Source: Escherichia coli
Lineage (GTDB): Bacteria > Pseudomonadota > Gammaproteobacteria > Enterobacterales > Enterobacteriaceae
Assembly (NCBI RefSeq): GCF_003790525.1
Contig: NZ_CP033635.1
Reading direction: 5' to 3' (one strand)
Length of the DNA stretch: 64,000 nucleotides
The notes below the pieces were generated by a model, which was not told where the DNA came from, ran no database searches, and saw only the letters and a list, made by a program, of their open reading frames with translations. Below, in pieces: positions 41,025-46,790 of this stretch. Within the stretch, counting starts at the first letter, position 1. Each line of letters opens with the position of its first letter. The position numbers and the translations under genes are program-made.

Positions 41025-41151
41025 CGACAATTCCTTCCCCCATCGCGGAAACGGATTTTCCGCCTGATTCTCAATCCCTTGTTTTTGATTACAAAAATTC
41101 CCGGCACGCTTATTGCACATTCCGCAAAGTAATAAAGACTGGAAGCCACCT

Positions 41152-42081
41152 ATGAGTTTTATTGAACGTTACGAACCGGAATACGTGCGCAATTTTATGA
41201 CGCAATATCCCGATTCGCCTTTGTACGTCCGCAAGGTCTGGAAGAATGAGATTCGCCAGAGCCTGGCATTGACCGATATTGAAAGTTGCAAAGCGGTGCT
41301 CAACGATGCCAGGGCCTTTGATTTACAGCTCACCTACCGCCCTGTGGAAGACAATGCCGCCGAGCTATCCGCGCGCGATGCGATAGTAAACCAGGCCATT
41401 TTGAGCACCCTTACGCTCCCCGATTTAACCCCGGAGCTTTCCCTGTATGCCGTCGGGATTTTGCTCTCCCGCGCCAGTAAAATGCCGGGCAGAGACGGAG
41501 ATATTCTTGCCCGCTTGACGACGCTGCCACAGGCGCTGGGGGATCATGCACAAAAAGGCACGCTACAGGCACAGTTCGCCCAACTCCCACCCGTGCCACA
41601 ACTGGCGCGCCAACTGGTGACGCTGCTCGGGAGTTTTGCGTTTGACTGGTCGATTTTGCCGGAAAGCCCGCGCAAAGCCTCGCTACCGTTGCAGGTGACT
41701 TTGCTGACGTTGCATGACGCCAACAGCGAAGCTTTGTTGCAACAGCAGCTTAAGGTGCAGTGGCAAACCACCTGGCAACAGCATTTTGCCGCCGCGCCGT
41801 GGATGATGCGCAACTGGCTGATTTACCGCGTTTATCACGACGTGATTGGGCAGGCAGACGGAGCAGATTATTGCCCGCTGGTGTGTGATTTTTATCTCAT
41901 CCGCACGTTAATCAGTTTATGGACGCTGGATGGTTCACCGCTGCGGAAGGAGGATATTTTCGCCCTTTTTGCGGTGTTTGAACGCTGGCGAGAGAGTGAA
42001 AATGCTGCGGCGATTCGCCAGCAGCTCCAGTCGTTATGTGCGGCAGAGCCGCTGCTGTCAGCATTTTCGCTGCTGACGTGA
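41152..42081 (+). CDS. Hypothetical protein within the Flag-2 cluster
   Basis: Open frame from MSFIERYEPEYVRNFMTQYPDSPLYVRK... with core-like composition; no recognisable motif. Confidence 0.55.
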   Translation: MSFIERYEPEYVRNFMTQYPDSPLYVRKVWKNEIRQSLALTDIESCKAVLNDARAFDLQLTYRPVEDNAAELSARDAIVNQAILSTLTLPDLTPELSLYAVGILLSRASKMPGRDGDILARLTTLPQALGDHAQKGTLQAQFAQLPPVPQLARQLVTLLGSFAFDWSILPESPRKASLPLQVTLLTLHDANSEALLQQQLKVQWQTTWQQHFAAAPWMMRNWLIYRVYHDVIGQADGADYCPLVCDFYLIRTLISLWTLDGSPLRKEDIFALFAVFERWRESENAAAIRQQLQSLCAAEPLLSAFSLLT

Positions 42082-42101
42082 GTCGCTCTGTGCGCGCTTT
42101 T

Positions 42102-42210
42102 CCCCTCCCCCTAACCCTCTCCCCAAAGGGGCGAGGGAACCGATCGAGCACGGTGTTAAAATCGGCGCTGGTTTTCTCCCTCTCCCTGTGGGAGAGGGTC
42201 GGGGTGAGGG
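42102..42210. repeat. GC-rich palindromic intergenic repeat, two inverted copies (boxC-like; family name uncertain)
   Basis: CCCCTCCCCCTAACCCTCTCCCCAAAGGGGCGAGGG and its inverted partner CTCCCTCTCCCTGTGGGAGAGGGTCGGGGTGAGGG; same motif recurs at 53408 and 63851. Confidence 0.5.
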
Positions 42211-42256
42211 CATCAGCACGCATATTCATCACATTCACCCATTAACTCACCCAAAC

Positions 42257-44704
42257 ACCATGCCAACACCAACCATTATCAAAACACTCGCCACCCAGCG
42301 CGAAAAACCGTCCGTCAGCGTCATCACGCCAACCTGGAACCGCAGCGCATTCCTGCCGTACCTGCTTTATATGTACCGCTATCAGGACTACCCGGCAGAC
42401 CGCCGCGAACTCATCATCCTCGACGATTCCCCTCAAAGCCATCAACACATCATCGACCGCCTGACCAATGGCACACCGGAAGCCTTCAACATCCGCTACA
42501 TCCATCACCCGGAAAAACTGCCGCTGGGCAAAAAACGCAATATGCTCAACGAACTGGCGCGCGGCGAATACATCCTCTGCATGGACGATGACGACTACTA
42601 CCCGGCAGATAAAATCTCTTACACCATCGCTATGATGCAAAAAAACCGGGCGCTCATCTCCGGTTCCGACCAGATCCCCATCTGGTACAGCCACATCAAT
42701 CGCATCTTTCAAAGCCGCAGCTTCGGCCCGCATAACATCCTCAACGGCACCTTTTGCTATCACCGTAACTACCTGAAAAAGCACCGCTACGATGACGATT
42801 GCAATTTAGGCGAAGAGAAAAGTTTCACCGACAATTTCAGCGTTAACCCGCTACAACTGCCCGGCGAGCGCACGATTTTGTGTATCTCGCACAGCCACAA
42901 CACCTTTGATAAAGACTTTATTCTCGGGGCCAGCACGCCAGTAAACGCGACGCTTACGGATATCGTCCGCGATCCGCTGCTCCGCAATGCTTATCTGAGT
43001 CTGCATAACGCCACTCATCATCAGGCGATCCAGTATCAGGCGATCGATCAGATCGTTCTGCTGAATCTGGATAAACGCCCGGATCGCTTACAGCAGATCC
43101 GTGAAGAACTCACATTGCTGCATATTCCTCCTGAGAAGATCACCCGCCTTGCCGCCAGTGAAAATGAAAACGGTCAACGGGGCCGCCAGCAATCACACTT
43201 GCAGGCACTGCGTCTGGCGCAACAACGCGGCTGGCAAAACTACCTGCTGCTGGAAGATGACGCGGTTATTCTCAAACAGGAGAAACATATTCAGGTGCTG
43301 AACGCGCTGCTGGCGAGCCTGGCGAAAATTCCCTGGCAGGTGATGATCCTCGGCGGCGAAATTTCGCAGGGAACGATGCTAAAAAGTTTGCCTGGGCTGG
43401 TGCACGCGCGGGACTGCCGCAAAGTGTGCGCTTATCTGGTGAACCGCCGCTACTACCCGCAGCTGGCGCAGCAGATGAACAACGATGAGCATTCGCTGGA
43501 AGACGGCTGGCAGCCGCTGCTGCGCACCGACAAATGGCTGGCCTGTTACCCGAGCCTTTGTTATCAGCGACCGGGCTTTAGTGATATCGAGAAAAAAGCG
43601 ACTGATAACATTAACCACTACTTCAATAAGTTACCCGTAGCCACCAAGCCATCTACATTACCTATCGCCGATACCATCGGCTTTTTTATGGAAACCTCAT
43701 TCCACTACGCGCTCTACCGCCCAATCATCACCGCCCTGCAGGCGCAGGGGCAGAGCTGTACGCTGGTGATCAATGACCGCGTATTTAAACCATTTCTGGA
43801 TGAAATGCTGGCGACGCTAAAAAGCATCGACGATCCGCAGCTCAAAGGAATGCGCTTATCTGAAATGCAGGCACACGGTCAGCGAGTAAAATGCCTGGTC
43901 AGCCCCTATCACACGCCTGTGCTCAGTGGCCTTTCCCCCCTGAACATTCGCGCCATGTACGGCTTAGCCAAAGAAACGTGGAACCACGCCGACTGGAACC
44001 GTTTTTATCAGCGCATTTTGTGTTACAGCCACTACAGCCAGCGGGCGCTGGCACATTTCGGCAGCGCAATAGTGGTCGGCAACCCGCGCTTCGACGCCTG
44101 GCATAACGCCACGTTCGACCGCGCGTTGCCGGAAAATATCAAACTGGACGAGCGTAAACCCACCGTACTCTACGCCCCAACGTTTGGCGCATTAAGCTCC
44201 CTGCCCCACTGGGCAGAAAAATTGGGGCGCTTAAGCGATGATGTGAACCTGATTTGCAAACTGCACCACGGCACCTGCTCGCGCCCGGAAGAAGCTGCAT
44301 CGCTGGCCCTGGCTCGCAGGCATTTAAAACAGCGCACCGACTCCGCCCGTCACACGCTGGCGCTGCTGGCAAAGGCCGATTACGTGCTGACCGATAACAG
44401 CGGCTTTATTTTCGATGCTATTCACGTTGATAAGCGGGTGATCCTGCTCGACTTTCCGGGCATGGCAACGTTGCTCGACGGTGAGAAAAGTTACTCCACG
44501 CCCGAAAGCGCCGACCAGCGAATCCGCGAAATATTGCCGGTGGCTCATGATGTTGCGGAACTGCGTTATTTGTTGTCAGAGGCGTTTGACTGGGGTGCGG
44601 TGCAGGCGCGGCTTACGAAGATTCGTCATCACTATTGCGATGCGTTTATGGATGGCAAGGCGGGAGAACGGGCAGCGATGGTGATTGTGGAGGCACTAGG
44701 GTAA
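42257..44704 (+). CDS. Multidomain glycosyltransferase: N-terminal GT-A family 2 domain, second GT-like domain, C-terminal TagF/TagB-type CDP-glycerol glycerophosphotransferase-like domain
   Basis: VSVITPTWNR...ILDDSP...CMDDDDYY (GT2 fold with DxD), ILLEDDAVIL in the middle, and C-terminal KPTVLYAPTFGALSS resembling the TagF-family LYAPTxR motif. Start at ATG 42257; the track start lies in the upstream repeat. Confidence 0.7.
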   Translation, partial: TMPTPTIIKTLATQREKPSVSVITPTWNRSAFLPYLLYMYRYQDYPADRRELIILDDSPQSHQHIIDRLTNGTPEAFNIRYIHHPEKLPLGKKRNMLNELARGEYILCMDDDDYYPADKISYTIAMMQKNRALISGSDQIPIWYSHINRIFQSRSFGPHNILNGTFCYHRNYLKKHRYDDDCNLGEEKSFTDNFSVNPLQLPGERTILCISHSHNTFDKDFILGASTPVNATLTDIVRDPLLRNAYLSLHNATHHQAIQYQAIDQIVLLNLDKRPDRLQQIREELTLLHIPPEKITRLAASENENGQRGRQQSHLQALRLAQQRGWQNYLLLEDDAVILKQEKHIQVLNALLASLAKIPWQVMILGGEISQGTMLKSLPGLVHARDCRKVCAYLVNRRYYPQLAQQMNNDEHSLEDGWQPLLRTDKWLACYPSLCYQRPGFSDIEKKATDNINHYFNKLPVATKPSTLPIADTIGFFMETSFHYALYRPIITALQAQGQSCTLVINDRVFKPFLDEMLATLKSIDDPQLKGMRLSEMQAHGQRVKCLVSPYHTPVLSGLSPLNIRAMYGLAKETWNHADWNRFYQRILCYSHYSQRALAHFGSAIVVGNPRFDAWHNATFDRALPENIKLDERKPTVLYAPTFGALSSLPHWAEKLGRLSDDVNLICKLHHGTCSRPEEAASLALARRHLKQRTDSARHTLALLAKADYVLTDNSGFIFDAIHVDKRVILLDFPGMATLLDGEKSYSTPESADQRIREILPVAHDVAELRYLLSEAFDWGAVQARLTKIRHHYCDAFMDGKAGERAAMVIVEALG

Positions 44705-44715
44705 AACGCGCAAGT

Positions 44716-44813
44716 GCCTGATGCGCTTCGCTTATCAGGCCTACGCGACCTTGCAATGTATTGAATTTGTAAGGATTTGTAGGCCGGTTAAGGCGTTTAC
44801 GCCGCATCCGGAA
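44716..44813. repeat. BIME (two REP palindromes in opposite orientation)
   Basis: GCCTGATGCGCTTCGCTTATCAGGCCTAC ... GTAGGCCGGTTAAGGCGTTTACGCCGCATCCGGAA. Confidence 0.6.
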
Positions 44814-45029
44814 CGAACAACGCACTTAACTACCCTCTGATTTCAAACTCATCGCTTTATGACTGGTGAATCGGTAAAAGTCGTAGATTGTGGGGGAGCG
44901 ATCTTTATGAATTCTGAAAAAACCTGAATCTTGCTAAACATATTGCTTATCATAAATATAGGTTACACACTATAACAATTATTGCGTAATTTAACATTTT
45001 GTTAAAATTGATAGGGCATAAACGATAAC

Positions 45030-45851
45030 ATGACTTATGATAAAAAAGTAACTTCCGGTACAACAAGCCAGAAACAAAACAACATTGTCACTCAAAAAAT
45101 ATCTCGCCCAAAGGAATTGTTTCTATTATTTTGGGTTGATGAGTCCGGTGATAGCCGACGTTCTATTTTTGAAGAAGCATGTCTGACGCGTTATTTCAAC
45201 ATCCTTTACTCCCCCGAGTATAAAAAAGAAACACAGATAGTTTACCATTTATCAATTAACACATTTAATCAAATCAAAGAAATATTAGAAATCTTTATAA
45301 ACAAGAATGGAGGTATAACCAAAGCAAAAGTTAAAGAAGTCAGTTTATTCTCACATGGGGGGCCAATTCATGGTCCTACAACCTCAGACTCTGTAAATAC
45401 ACCTTCCGTGCCTAAATACCCACAACAAATGGACATAATCGGAGGATGGGATTCAATTGATTTTAACTGGTCAAATAACGCTATGTTTGTTATGTATGGT
45501 TGTCGCACTAGTTATGCAAGTGATGATTCAGGACAAGGTTTTGCCAGTAAATTATCCCTATTAGATAATTTTAAGGACGTTAATGTCTGGGGACAAACAG
45601 AAAGTACTTATCCATCTTATTTCCCAGATATTAGGACAACTTCGATTATGAGGTCAATAAATATAGGTTGGTCTTTTTCACCAACATACATGGTTGCCAG
45701 TTCTGAAGGTCAAGGATGGGATGCCTTATTTCCGGATGATAAAAATCCACTAAAGTCTCTCCCTATGCAGTGTTATAATAATGGGAAATTGATTTTAACC
45801 TGCGATCAAAGCAGTTTTAATGATCACCGGAAGAATAAATCAAATGATTAG
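45030..45851 (+). CDS. Hypothetical protein, AT-rich insert inside Flag-2
   Basis: 273-aa ORF, markedly more AT-rich than neighbours; candidate His (SLFSHGGPIHG) and Cys (VMYGCRTSY) motifs noted but not assignable. Confidence 0.5.
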   Translation: MTYDKKVTSGTTSQKQNNIVTQKISRPKELFLLFWVDESGDSRRSIFEEACLTRYFNILYSPEYKKETQIVYHLSINTFNQIKEILEIFINKNGGITKAKVKEVSLFSHGGPIHGPTTSDSVNTPSVPKYPQQMDIIGGWDSIDFNWSNNAMFVMYGCRTSYASDDSGQGFASKLSLLDNFKDVNVWGQTESTYPSYFPDIRTTSIMRSINIGWSFSPTYMVASSEGQGWDALFPDDKNPLKSLPMQCYNNGKLILTCDQSSFNDHRKNKSND

Positions 45852-46383
45852 TATTATATTGAGAAGCTTGATTCTATTATTCATGATAATAGTGTATCCA
45901 GATTATAATAAAAACCTACCTGCCTTTGAAGTATATGGGGAAAATGACATACTTAAGGATATGGTTATTAATATGAAAACTTATAGTAACCATAGTAAGA
46001 AAAACTCTTCCCCAACAACTATAGTGCAAACCATCCTTTTTAAAGGGAATATACAGCAAGTTTTTGAAAGCAACGATATGGGTGCAGAGAGCTTCTTTTT
46101 TTCTTATAATAACAAGGTTGAAACGCTGGTAACAGACGCTTTCTTTTTGAATAGAAAATTAGACAAACTGCATGATGCAAATATTTTTGAAGTTATAAAG
46201 CATGGGGAAAATATCGTTATTAGATATTACAAATGCAAAATTGAATATATGAAAAAAGAAAAATCTATCGAAATAGAGATATCAACAAACAAAAACAGTT
46301 ATTTTAGCAAAAATGGAATAAAACAAAAAGACACAAATAAATATAACACATATTTCTTCAATTACTTTGAGGCTCAAAAATAA
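45820..46383 (+). CDS. Hypothetical protein with N-terminal hydrophobic segment, AT-rich insert inside Flag-2
   Basis: 187-aa ORF overlapping the end of the previous gene; N-terminus MISIILRSLILLFMIIVYP looks like a signal or membrane anchor. Start uncertain. Confidence 0.45.
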   Translation: MITGRINQMISIILRSLILLFMIIVYPDYNKNLPAFEVYGENDILKDMVINMKTYSNHSKKNSSPTTIVQTILFKGNIQQVFESNDMGAESFFFSYNNKVETLVTDAFFLNRKLDKLHDANIFEVIKHGENIVIRYYKCKIEYMKKEKSIEIEISTNKNSYFSKNGIKQKDTNKYNTYFFNYFEAQK

Positions 46384-46394
46384 ATTTTATTTTG

Positions 46395-46790
46395 TCATGC
46401 TTTCCCCCTAATCACCTCAATAATCCCCGTCGTCGACACCGACGGCGTGCGGGGGAAATACACTACCTCACAAATATACGCGAAGCTGTCAAACTTTCCT
46501 GCCCAGTCATCGCCCATCACTAAAATATCCGCACTGTACCCCCGCAGATACTCCGCTTTCTGCTCCAGCGACTCTTCCAGAAATACGCCATCCACGCACG
46601 CCAGCCCGGCGATGATCGCCATGCGGTCATCCTGAGGGTAAACCGGTGCCCTGCCCTTTTTGGCGATGTTCAGGGCATCGGACGATACGCCGACCAGCAG
46701 CCGTTCGCCCAGCGTGCGGGCGCGTTGTAAAAGGCGCAGATGACCGACATGAAACACATCGAAGGTGCCGAAGGTGATGACCGTTTTCAT
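46395..46790 (-). CDS. Cytidylyltransferase (glycerol-3-phosphate cytidylyltransferase TagD-like)
   Basis: 131 aa; MKTVITFGTFDVFHVGHLRLLQRAR carries the HxGH nucleotidyltransferase motif; start is 3 nt after the lfiJ stop. Confidence 0.8.
   Translation of the reverse strand: MKTVITFGTFDVFHVGHLRLLQRARTLGERLLVGVSSDALNIAKKGRAPVYPQDDRMAIIAGLACVDGVFLEESLEQKAEYLRGYSADILVMGDDWAGKFDSFAYICEVVYFPRTPSVSTTGIIEVIRGKA

What the first reader, a model, noticed from the sequence alone, without database searches (positions are those of the whole stretch)
45030..46383. AT-rich two-gene insert inside the otherwise GC-balanced flagellar cluster
Seen in sequence: two overlapping ORFs (273 aa and 187 aa) are far more AT-rich than the flanking flagellar genes and are bounded on the left by a BIME. 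The first has His- and Cys-containing motifs (SLFSHGGPIHG, VMYGCRTSY); the second starts with a hydrophobic segment. Inference: a laterally acquired cargo pair, possibly a small hydrolase/toxin with a secreted or membrane partner, or simply part of the ancestral Flag-2 locus with unusual composition.
Basis: inference. Interest (0 to 1): 0.45.

Follow-up and report, generated by a model that had tools for sequence, protein, structure and literature searches.

The report
Orphan T6SS toxin–immunity gene pair
The AT-rich two-gene insert in the E. coli lateral-flagella (Flag-2) cluster has nothing to do with flagella: it is most likely a mobile bacterial-warfare cassette encoding a caspase-like cysteine-protease toxin of the kind fired by type VI secretion systems, followed by its exported immunity protein.

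Summary
Two co-directional overlapping genes (45030-45851, 273 aa; 45844-46383, 179 aa) have 29-37% GC against 53-65% in the flanks, and a BIME lies on their left. They are cargo, not Flag-2 core. Among 5,426 complete E. coli genomes this pair fills the site in 129, a diverged allele in 2, an unrelated AT-rich block in 408, and the site is empty in 683.

Gene 1 has no NCBIfam match and only a weak Pfam DUF4347 hit. A profile search shows its domain as the C-terminal tip directly after the RHS core in 10 of 13 long relatives, fused to Hcp in two, and as a stand-alone gene right after vgrG in three loci. Its AlphaFold model (pLDDT 93.6) best matches the P. aeruginosa T6SS effector Tce1, then clan CD peptidases. 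His109 and Cys158 are near-invariant.

Gene 2 always follows gene 1 homologues and usually carries a lipoprotein signal. Its model is an anchored β-sandwich with no known relatives.

Best reading: an orphan T6SS effector–immunity cassette, probably acting in the target's periplasm. Secretion, toxicity, substrate and a T6SS in the host are untested. It is a new member of a known kind.

The parts
44716..44811 (.). BIME: two inverted REP elements (44716-44744 and 44779-44811) after the glycosyltransferase stop codon. It forms the left border shared by all states of the site.
   Evidence: Sequence. The same REP pair is present at the empty site of strain E32. The stretch matches about 5,380 E. coli genomes. 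IS621 is inserted here in strain 18AR0366.
44812..45029 (+). AT-rich leader upstream of ORF1, presumed to hold the promoter and RBS. It is absent from the empty site.
   Evidence: 87-98% identical to the diverged L005 allele. 44812-44920 is also shared with the unrelated AVS0543-type block. The consensus scan found no + strand sigma-70-like site in this stretch, so the promoter is inferred, not shown.
45030..45851 (+). ORF1, 273 aa: a stand-alone polymorphic-toxin / T6SS effector domain with a caspase-like (clan CD) fold and no signal peptide.
45030..45147 (+). Conserved 5' part of ORF1 (codons 1-39). Residues 1-27 are low-confidence in the model, are shared by stand-alone homologues and are missing from RHS-fused ones. 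This may be a loading or adaptor segment, and it is the left recombination arm of the cassette.
   Evidence: 95-98% identical to L005 before identity drops to 50-75%. pLDDT is 59-85 for residues 1-30.
45351..45356 (+). Codons for Ser108-His109 (tca cat). His109 is the predicted catalytic histidine, directly after β-strand 99-107.
   Evidence: Near-invariant in A3 and A4. Strand position from the DSSP of the model.
45498..45503 (+). Codons for Gly157-Cys158 (ggt tgt). Cys158 is the predicted catalytic cysteine, directly after β-strand 147-155.
   Evidence: G157 is invariant and C158 at least 90% conserved in 73 sequences; C158 is invariant in A4. Model.
45844..46383 (+). ORF2, 179 aa: predicted exported or membrane-anchored β-sandwich immunity protein, translationally coupled to ORF1 by an 8-nt overlap.
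   Evidence: Homologues follow ORF1 homologues in L003, L005, L006, L010, L011, L016 and L017. The aligned position holds a Cys after the hydrophobic segment in 7 of 11 A5 members, and a lipobox or TM anchor is found in most database relatives. Model.
46384..46409 (.). Right junction of the variable segment. It includes the stop and the last two codons of the convergent tagD-like cytidylyltransferase gene (stop at 46395-46397 on the - strand).
   Evidence: Homology to the empty site resumes at 'ctaatcacctc', about 46410. The tagD C-terminus reads ...RGKA here...RGLL in E32 and ...RGHF in AVS0543.

Best explanation
The insert is an orphan effector-immunity cassette of the polymorphic-toxin / type VI secretion (T6SS) kind, lodged in variable region 1 of the Flag-2 locus. 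It has no role in flagella. ORF1 is a cytoplasmically made toxin with no signal peptide and a caspase-like (clan CD, DUF4347/Tce-related) cysteine-peptidase fold that uses His109 and Cys158. A T6SS would carry it into neighbouring bacteria, most likely as VgrG-associated cargo, and it would cleave a target in their periplasm. ORF2 is made by coupled translation and exported to the periplasmic side of the inner membrane. Most relatives are lipoproteins; this allele is probably an uncleaved anchor. There it would bind and block incoming toxin, protecting the producer and its kin. Different alleles of the toxin domain plus immunity gene are swapped at this site by homologous recombination. The left arm is the conserved first ~40 codons of ORF1 with its leader, and the right arm is the end of tagD.

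Shown here: cargo status, the link of the family to RHS, Hcp and VgrG, the fold, the conserved dyad, the obligatory gene pairing, export signals on the partner, and the allele-swap pattern.

Inferred: secretion, toxicity, peptidase activity, periplasmic site of action, and immunity by binding.
For: (1) Cargo. The site is filled by this pair in 129 complete E. coli genomes, empty in 683, filled by a diverged allele in 2 and by an unrelated AT-rich block in 408. GC is 0.29-0.37 against 0.53-0.65 in the flanks.

(2) Polymorphic-toxin domain. A profile search of 1.84 billion representatives gave 338 relatives. In 10 of 13 long relatives the domain starts 1-21 residues after the TIGR03696 RHS-associated core, and the consensus shows ...DPxG directly before the domain. 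Two relatives are fused to Hcp/TssD, one to Hint and one to LysM. An AFDB relative is fused to peptidase M23.

(3) vgrG linkage. Stand-alone homologues start right after vgrG in L006 (Phage_GPD / base_V / Gp5_C). The same holds in L017 of Aquimarina, where the upstream gene hits DUF2345 and VgrG_rel. In L016 the upstream gene shares its C-terminal repeat module with the L006 VgrG, E 2e-13.

(5) Immunity. An ORF2 homologue follows the toxin gene in every close locus long enough to show a downstream gene. Aquimarina has three tandem paralogues. Most members carry a lipobox Cys or TM anchor. Even the non-homologous partners of distant members carry export signals.

(6) Allele swap. Against L005 the flanks are 91-96% identical, but 45150-46405 is only 50-75% identical. 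dS is 1.36 in the cassette against 0.24-0.28 in the flanks, and ORF1 dN/dS is 0.15.

(7) Precedent. Flag-2 VR1 is a published cargo hot spot and holds VgrG+Rhs+Imm26 in one E. fergusonii strain (PMC6993521). 'Tox-Caspase' is a predicted polymorphic-toxin class (PMC3482391). A 44%-identical paralogue pair lies between ISAs1 copies in E. coli O158:H23. From my own knowledge of the K-12 map, that position is where K-12 carries RhsE.
Against: There are no experimental data for secretion, toxicity or immunity. There is no vgrG, hcp, PAAR or rhs gene near the pair in the window. In the near-identical strain SMS-3-5 the two T6SS insertion sites I checked, aspV and metV, hold no T6SS; the rest of that genome was not checked. 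The only studied structural relatives, Tce1 and Tce2, have no immunity gene, were not toxic when expressed in E. coli, and look anti-eukaryotic (PMC13323088). Sequence similarity to DUF4347 is weak: E 6e-4, with 3 of 73 members at E ≤ 0.001. This allele of ORF2 has Tyr where most relatives have the lipobox Cys. No clan CD enzyme with a periplasmic bacterial target is known to me, so the substrate is a guess. No promoter was identified.
Confidence: 0.75

Rival explanations
1. Defensive orphan. In these E. coli strains the cassette is kept mainly for ORF2, which protects against attackers carrying this toxin family. ORF1 is not delivered because no matching T6SS or VgrG is present. This overlaps with the best explanation about what the genes are; it differs on how they are used.
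For: The pair is far from any T6SS gene in the window. The aspV and metV sites of SMS-3-5 lack a T6SS. Orphan immunity genes are common in polymorphic-toxin systems (PMC3482391).
Against: ORF1 is full length with an intact dyad, and dN/dS is 0.15. A useless toxin gene would be expected to decay. The rest of the genome was not searched for a T6SS.
Confidence: 0.3
2. Anti-eukaryotic effector. ORF1 acts like Tce2 or the CPD-type proteases inside host or predator cells, and ORF2 is not an immunity protein.
For: The closest solved structure is Tce1. Tce2 is toxic in yeast but not in E. coli.
Against: The co-varying, exported partner gene is obligatory, and tandem partner paralogues occur in one locus. 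Together with RHS-tip architectures these are hallmarks of antibacterial effector-immunity pairs. Tce1 and Tce2 lack any such partner.
Confidence: 0.1
3. Flag-2 accessory genes, for example a peptidase that processes lateral flagellin or its glycan, with a membrane partner.
For: The pair sits in VR1 among flagellin-modification genes: a FliB-like methylase, a glycosyltransferase and TagD.
Against: It is present in only about 10% of scorable E. coli Flag-2 sites. The same pair lies between nfo and fruA in Superficieibacter and after vgrG elsewhere. The domain forms RHS tips. The composition is foreign.
Confidence: 0.03
4. An intracellular toxin-antitoxin or anti-phage abortive-infection pair unrelated to secretion.
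For: It is a two-gene, overlapping, AT-rich island. Caspase-like and CHAT proteases do occur in defence systems (CHAT hits).
Against: There is no PADLOC or PHROG match of note. The partner is exported or lipidated in most members, so it could not neutralise a cytoplasmic toxin. The family's architectures are RHS, Hcp and VgrG.
Confidence: 0.04

Closest known systems
Tce1 (PA0256) and Tce2 (PA2372), DUF4347-type putative cysteine-protease cargo effectors of the P. aeruginosa H3-T6SS (PMC13323088; PDB 9qpe)
   Different: Identity is only 14% and no sequence-level match appeared in the PDB search. Tce1 and Tce2 have no immunity gene, are not toxic in E. coli, and are Hcp-lumen cargo thought to be anti-eukaryotic. 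The ORF1 family always has an exported partner gene, occurs as RHS tips, and lies next to vgrG.
'Tox-Caspase' polymorphic-toxin domain class of Zhang, Aravind et al. 2012 (PMC3482391)
   Same: Caspase-like fold with H and C as conserved residues. It sits as the C-terminal-most domain of polymorphic toxins, including RHS and T6SS-delivered ones, in Proteobacteria and Bacteroidetes.
   Different: The immunity families listed for that class are Imm36 and Imm57. ORF2 matches no Pfam family and has a different predicted fold, an anchored β-sandwich. I could not check whether this exact family was in their set.
Clan CD autoprocessing cysteine protease domains (peptidase C80: TcdA/TcdB CPD, MARTX CPD)
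   Different: CPDs are internal, InsP6-activated processing domains of large host-directed toxins. ORF1 is a terminal or stand-alone toxin domain paired with an immunity gene. No InsP6-site comparison was possible.
Periplasm-acting T6SS effector-immunity pairs (Tae/Tai amidases, Tle/Tli lipases) and Rhs orphan toxin-immunity modules (own knowledge of these families)
   Same: The genetic logic is the same: a toxin without a signal peptide, an adjacent lipoprotein or periplasmic immunity gene, vgrG linkage, and orphan copies elsewhere in the chromosome that are exchanged by recombination.
   Different: The catalytic fold differs. Tae are papain-like/NlpC-P60 and Tle are α/β-hydrolase or PLD enzymes. 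There is no homology to any of them.

Membership tests
Polymorphic-toxin / T6SS effector-immunity module | The toxin domain occurs as the C-terminal tip of delivery proteins (RHS, Hcp, VgrG, PAAR), or its gene lies next to vgrG or hcp. | tested here: met
   The RHS core lies directly before the domain in 10 of 13 long relatives. There are two TssD/Hcp fusions. Stand-alone homologues lie directly after vgrG in L006, L016 and L017.
Polymorphic-toxin / T6SS effector-immunity module | An adjacent, co-directional partner gene travels and co-varies with the toxin domain (the immunity gene). | tested here: met
   ORF2 homologues follow ORF1 homologues in every close locus long enough to show a downstream gene. 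The toxin domain plus ORF2 diverge together as one block against L005. Aquimarina has three tandem paralogues.
Polymorphic-toxin / T6SS effector-immunity module | A T6SS (or other delivery machine) and a cognate carrier are present in the same genome. | tested here: inconclusive
   There is none in the 64-kb window. There is none at the aspV or metV sites of SMS-3-5. The rest of the genome could not be searched.
Polymorphic-toxin / T6SS effector-immunity module | T6SS-dependent secretion, toxicity to non-immune cells, and neutralisation by the partner. | not testable with these tools
   Needs experiments.
Clan CD cysteine peptidases (caspase/hemoglobinase fold) | α/β caspase-like fold. | tested here: met
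Clan CD cysteine peptidases (caspase/hemoglobinase fold) | A catalytic His then Cys, each just after a hydrophobic β-strand. | tested here: met
   H109 follows strand 99-107 and C158 follows strand 147-155. Both are at least 90% conserved in 73 sequences and invariant in 43 fused relatives. Residue-by-residue superposition on a solved dyad was not available.
Clan CD cysteine peptidases (caspase/hemoglobinase fold) | Peptide-bond hydrolysis or transpeptidation activity. | not testable with these tools
   Needs biochemistry.
Pfam DUF4347 (PF14252) | A significant match to the family HMM. | tested here: inconclusive
   E 6.3e-4, 20 bits, covering residues 70-178 only. Only 3 of 73 family members reach E ≤ 0.001. 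This is best described as an outlying sister family of DUF4347.
Tox-Caspase with Imm36/Imm57 immunity (Zhang et al. 2012) | The partner belongs to Imm36 or Imm57. | tested here: not met
Flag-2 core or accessory flagellar genes | Conserved across Flag-2 loci and homologous to flagellar or flagellin-modification proteins. | tested here: not met
   The site has this pair in 129 genomes, is empty in 683 and holds another block in 408. There is no flagellar family match. The pair is found outside flagellar loci.
Known anti-phage defence / TA systems | A match to PADLOC models, and a cytoplasmic antitoxin. | tested here: not met
   No PADLOC hit at E ≤ 1. The partner carries export signals.

The most novel reading that the evidence does not exclude
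ORF1 would define the first antibacterial clan CD (caspase-fold) T6SS/Rhs toxin that kills from the periplasm. It would cleave peptidoglycan stem peptides or an essential envelope protein. The occasional LysM and M23 fusions of the domain hint at the cell wall. A new β-sandwich lipoprotein inhibitor family would block it. The conserved 27-residue N-terminal tag would specify loading onto VgrGs that carry a particular C-terminal repeat module.
Probability: 0.4. Interest if true: 0.65.

Novelty: new member of a known kind. Interest (0 to 1): 0.4.

Why it matters
It assigns a concrete, testable function to two 'hypothetical' genes carried by over a hundred sequenced E. coli strains. It also shows that the Flag-2 VR1 hot spot collects interbacterial-warfare cassettes as well as flagellin-modification genes.

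The toxin family has 338 representative relatives across Gammaproteobacteria and Bacteroidota. It lies outside current Pfam and NCBIfam models, and its only studied structural relatives, Tce1 and Tce2, lack immunity genes and look anti-eukaryotic.

An immunity-paired, probably periplasm-acting branch would widen what caspase-like proteases are known to do in bacterial competition. It would also give a tractable E. coli system, toxin plus inhibitor, for finding the substrate.

Tried and rejected
- NCBIfam, PADLOC and PHROG scans of both proteins gave nothing useful.
- The first word-indexed homology search found only 7 clusters and made the family look tiny. The exhaustive profile search corrected this to 338 relatives.
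- A PDB sequence search with the family profile found nothing credible.
With the shallow alignment it gave only two loci.
- No terminal inverted or direct repeats bound the insert, so it is not a transposon.
- The promoter/terminator scan was uninformative.
- An α/β-hydrolase (lipase) reading of 'FSHGG' was considered and rejected. Residue -2 from the Ser is Leu, Ile or Val rather than Gly, and all strong fold matches are clan CD, not α/β-hydrolases.
- A papain-like amidase reading was rejected because the order is His then Cys.
- Plasmid carriage was checked. Only truncated Acinetobacter fragments turned up.
- Literature searches for this family, for an antibacterial caspase-like T6SS effector, and for T6SS loci of SMS-3-5 found nothing specific.
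- Browsing the aspV and metV sites of SMS-3-5 found no T6SS.
- The AVS0543-type alternative block shows no similarity to ORF1 or ORF2 and has no NCBIfam match.

Full report
**What is in the sequence**

The window is an E. coli chromosome almost identical to strain SMS-3-5: 99.9% over the query. The region is the Flag-2 lateral-flagella locus between rayT and dinB. The finding sits between a large glycosyltransferase gene (ending at 44704, + strand) and a convergent TagD-like cytidylyltransferase gene (46395-46790, - strand) that heads the fliJ-fliI-fliH block.

- ORF1 is 45030-45851 (273 aa).
- ORF2 ends at 46383. The resulting 8-nt overlap (ATGATTAG) is also found in three homologous loci, so 45844 (179 aa) is the likely start.
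- GC falls to 0.29-0.37 over 44800-46450, against 0.53-0.65 on both sides.
- The left border is a real BIME, two inverted REPs at 44716-44811. It matches nearly every E. coli genome.

**Cargo, not flagellar core**

In strain E32 the glycosyltransferase, the same BIME and the cytidylyltransferase are separated by only 117 bp. Comparison puts the variable segment at window 44812-46409. Its right end lies inside the last two codons of tagD, whose C-terminus differs with the state of the site.

States of the site among 5,426 complete E. coli genomes:

| State of the site | Genomes |
|---|---|
| Empty | 683 |
| This pair | 129 |
| Diverged allele of the pair | 2 |
| Unrelated 2.9-kb AT-rich block with three other small ORFs | 408 |
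| IS621 inserted in the BIME | at least 1 |

- No inverted or direct repeats bound the insert.
- The position is variable region 1 (lfiJ-lfgN), which De Maayer et al. describe as a cargo hot spot. In one E. fergusonii strain it holds VgrG, an Rhs protein and Imm26 (PMC6993521).
- The same gene pair lies between an nfo-like gene and fruA in Superficieibacter electus, with no flagellar genes nearby.

**What ORF1 is**

Standard libraries fail. There is no NCBIfam, PADLOC or PHROG hit, and only a weak Pfam DUF4347 hit (E 6e-4, residues 70-178). A word-indexed search found 7 clusters. An exhaustive profile search found 338 representative relatives.

Architectures of the relatives:
- In many relatives the domain (profile positions ~27-270) is the C-terminal end of a longer protein.
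- In 10 of 13 long relatives tested, the TIGR03696 RHS-associated core ends 1-21 residues before the domain.
- An alignment of 43 fused relatives shows the ...DPxG core ending directly before the domain.
- Two relatives carry an N-terminal Hcp/TssD domain, one a Hint domain and one a LysM domain.
- An AlphaFold DB relative is fused to peptidase M23.

Gene neighbourhoods of the stand-alone homologues:
- In L006 the homologue begins immediately after a complete vgrG gene.
- In L017 (Aquimarina muelleri) it follows a VgrG C-terminus, which hits DUF2345 and VgrG_rel.
- In L016 it follows a gene whose C-terminal repeats match those of the L006 VgrG, E 2e-13.
- A 44%-identical paralogue pair in E. 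coli O158:H23 lies between two ISAs1 copies in the yncG-pptA interval. From my own knowledge of the K-12 map, that is where RhsE sits.

These are the architectures and neighbourhoods of a polymorphic-toxin / T6SS effector domain.

**Fold and active site**

With a 73-sequence alignment, AlphaFold2 gives pLDDT 93.6 and pTM 0.90.

- Foldseek against AFDB50 returns family members named 'DUF4347' or 'RHS repeat-associated core', then caspase-family proteins.
- His109 (in FSHGG) follows strand 99-107 and Cys158 (in YGC) follows strand 147-155. The order is His then Cys, as in clan CD. Both are at least 90% conserved in the 73 sequences and invariant in the 43 fused relatives.

Two other readings of the motifs were rejected. 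In the lipase (GxSxG) reading, the residue two before the Ser should be Gly, but it is Leu, Ile or Val, and the strong fold matches are clan CD rather than α/β-hydrolases. The papain-like reading fails because those enzymes have Cys before His.

The paper describing Tce1 and Tce2 aligns their His/Cys with the TcdB CPD dyad. It reports no immunity genes and no toxicity in E. coli, and dyad-dependent toxicity of Tce2 in yeast (PMC13323088). Zhang et al. 2012 had predicted a 'Tox-Caspase' class of polymorphic toxins (PMC3482391).

**What ORF2 is**

ORF2 has no family match.

- A homologue follows the toxin gene in every close locus long enough to show a downstream gene: L003, L005, L006, L010, L011, L016 and L017.
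- Aquimarina has three tandem paralogues.
- In 7 of 11 aligned members a Cys lies at the end of the N-terminal hydrophobic segment, in a lipobox-like context (LTGC, LPGC, LQGC, LTSC...). Most further relatives have a lipobox or TM anchor.
- The window's allele has Tyr at that position (VYPDY), so it is probably an uncleaved anchor.
- Distant family members have non-homologous partners, and these also carry export signals: FSAC in L021 and a signal-anchor in L015.

A toxin without a signal peptide paired with an exported partner is the usual pattern of periplasm-acting T6SS effector-immunity pairs. That statement rests on my own knowledge of the Tae/Tai and Tle/Tli systems.

**Allele dynamics**

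L005 is an Escherichia contig carrying a second allele at the same site.

| Segment | Nucleotide identity, L005 vs window |
|---|---|
| Flagellar flanks | 91-96% |
| Leader and first ~40 codons of ORF1 | 92-98% |
| 45150-46405 (toxin domain plus ORF2) | 50-75%, with sharp breaks at both ends |

Synonymous divergence is 1.36 in ORF1 against 0.24-0.28 in fliI and tagD. ORF1 dN/dS is 0.15. The two alleles are therefore old, both are under purifying selection, and they were exchanged by recombination using the conserved arms. This is the standard behaviour of polymorphic toxin cassettes.

Residues 1-27 are low-confidence in the model and are conserved only in stand-alone members, including the vgrG-linked ones. 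They may be a loading tag; this is inference.

**Mechanism proposed**

- ORF1 is made in the cytoplasm, loaded on a T6SS (most likely through a VgrG) and injected into neighbouring cells.
- There the His109/Cys158 dyad cleaves an envelope target.
- ORF2, anchored on the periplasmic face of the inner membrane, binds and blocks incoming toxin.
- The LysM and M23 fusions hint weakly at the cell wall as the target.

**Limits**

- Nothing here shows secretion, toxicity or immunity.
- No T6SS gene lies in the window.
- The aspV and metV sites of SMS-3-5 have no T6SS, and the rest of that genome was not checked. The pair may therefore serve mainly as defensive immunity in some hosts.
- The DUF4347 sequence link is weak.
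- The catalytic equivalence rests on the fold match and conservation, not on a residue-level superposition.

**Verdict**

This is a real, laterally acquired two-gene cassette. It is best filed as an orphan T6SS/polymorphic-toxin effector-immunity pair, with a caspase-like cysteine-peptidase toxin and a new exported immunity family. It is a new member of a known kind, of moderate interest, with a clear experimental path.

Noticed in passing
L018:2086-4997 (E. coli AVS0543, same site between the glycosyltransferase and tagD): A third state of the site. It is an unrelated 2.9-kb AT-rich block (GC about 0.31-0.39) with three small ORFs (133, 182 and 115 aa) that have no NCBIfam match and no similarity to ORF1 or ORF2. 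It is present in 408 complete E. coli genomes, often with IS1 or IS2 inserted. It shares window 44812-44920 with the SMS-type state. It might be another orphan immunity or toxin array.
   Followed up: partly
L019:3915-4895 (E. coli 18AR0366): An IS621 (IS110 family) copy sits in the BIME between the glycosyltransferase and tagD genes at an otherwise empty site.
   Followed up: no
L011:11365-12769 (E. coli O158:H23 CFIAFB20140388): A paralogous toxin-immunity pair (263 aa, 44% identical to ORF1, plus a 188-aa ORF2 homologue) lies between an intact and a frameshifted ISAs1 copy in the yncG-pptA interval. From memory of the K-12 map, that is the RhsE position. Only 2 of 5,426 complete genomes carry it nearly full length.
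   Followed up: partly
window 45895-45903 (ORF2 codons 18-20, P-D-Y): This allele of ORF2 has Tyr where 7 of 11 aligned homologues have the lipobox-like cysteine (LPGC, LTGC, LQGC...). It is probably not lipidated and may stay as a signal-anchor.
   Followed up: partly
window 46395-46409 (3' end of the tagD-like gene, - strand): The last two residues of the cytidylyltransferase change with the cassette state: ...RGKA here, ...RGLL at the empty site, ...RGHF with the AVS0543 block, and a longer tail in L005. The recombination junction therefore lies inside the gene.
   Followed up: partly
L006:2400-2624 and L016:200-847: The vgrG genes directly upstream of two ORF1 homologues end in one to three copies of a ~45-residue module, (D/E)DE(I/V)PYAxTxY...DG...G(I/T)TDxxG(Y/F)T. 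It is a candidate effector-docking domain specific for this toxin family.
   Followed up: partly
L017:1789-3563 (Aquimarina muelleri): Three tandem ORF2 paralogues follow the toxin gene. The first has no signal peptide and the other two have lipoboxes.
   Followed up: no
window 42091-42222: An inverted pair of 49-nt GC-rich repeats (71% complementary) lies between the FliB-like methylase gene and the glycosyltransferase start. The stretch matches 4,389 E. coli genomes at a median of 6 places each, so it is a dispersed extragenic repeat. It looks boxC-like, from memory. It makes the mechanical ORF for the glycosyltransferase start too early (GTG 42188). PGAP places the start 72 nt downstream, at about 42260.
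   Followed up: partly
window 41113-42081: The ORF upstream of the glycosyltransferase is only a weak match to flagellin lysine-N-methylase FliB (E 6e-10, 39 bits against a cutoff of 85). PGAP annotates it as hypothetical.
   Followed up: no
L022:6019-6944 (Acinetobacter sp. YH12138 plasmid pYH12138-1): A truncated copy of the toxin domain (its C-terminal half, 43% identity) with a downstream 172-aa ORF lies on a mobilizable plasmid, among HipA and BrnT toxin-antitoxin genes and an Imm41 immunity gene.
   Followed up: no
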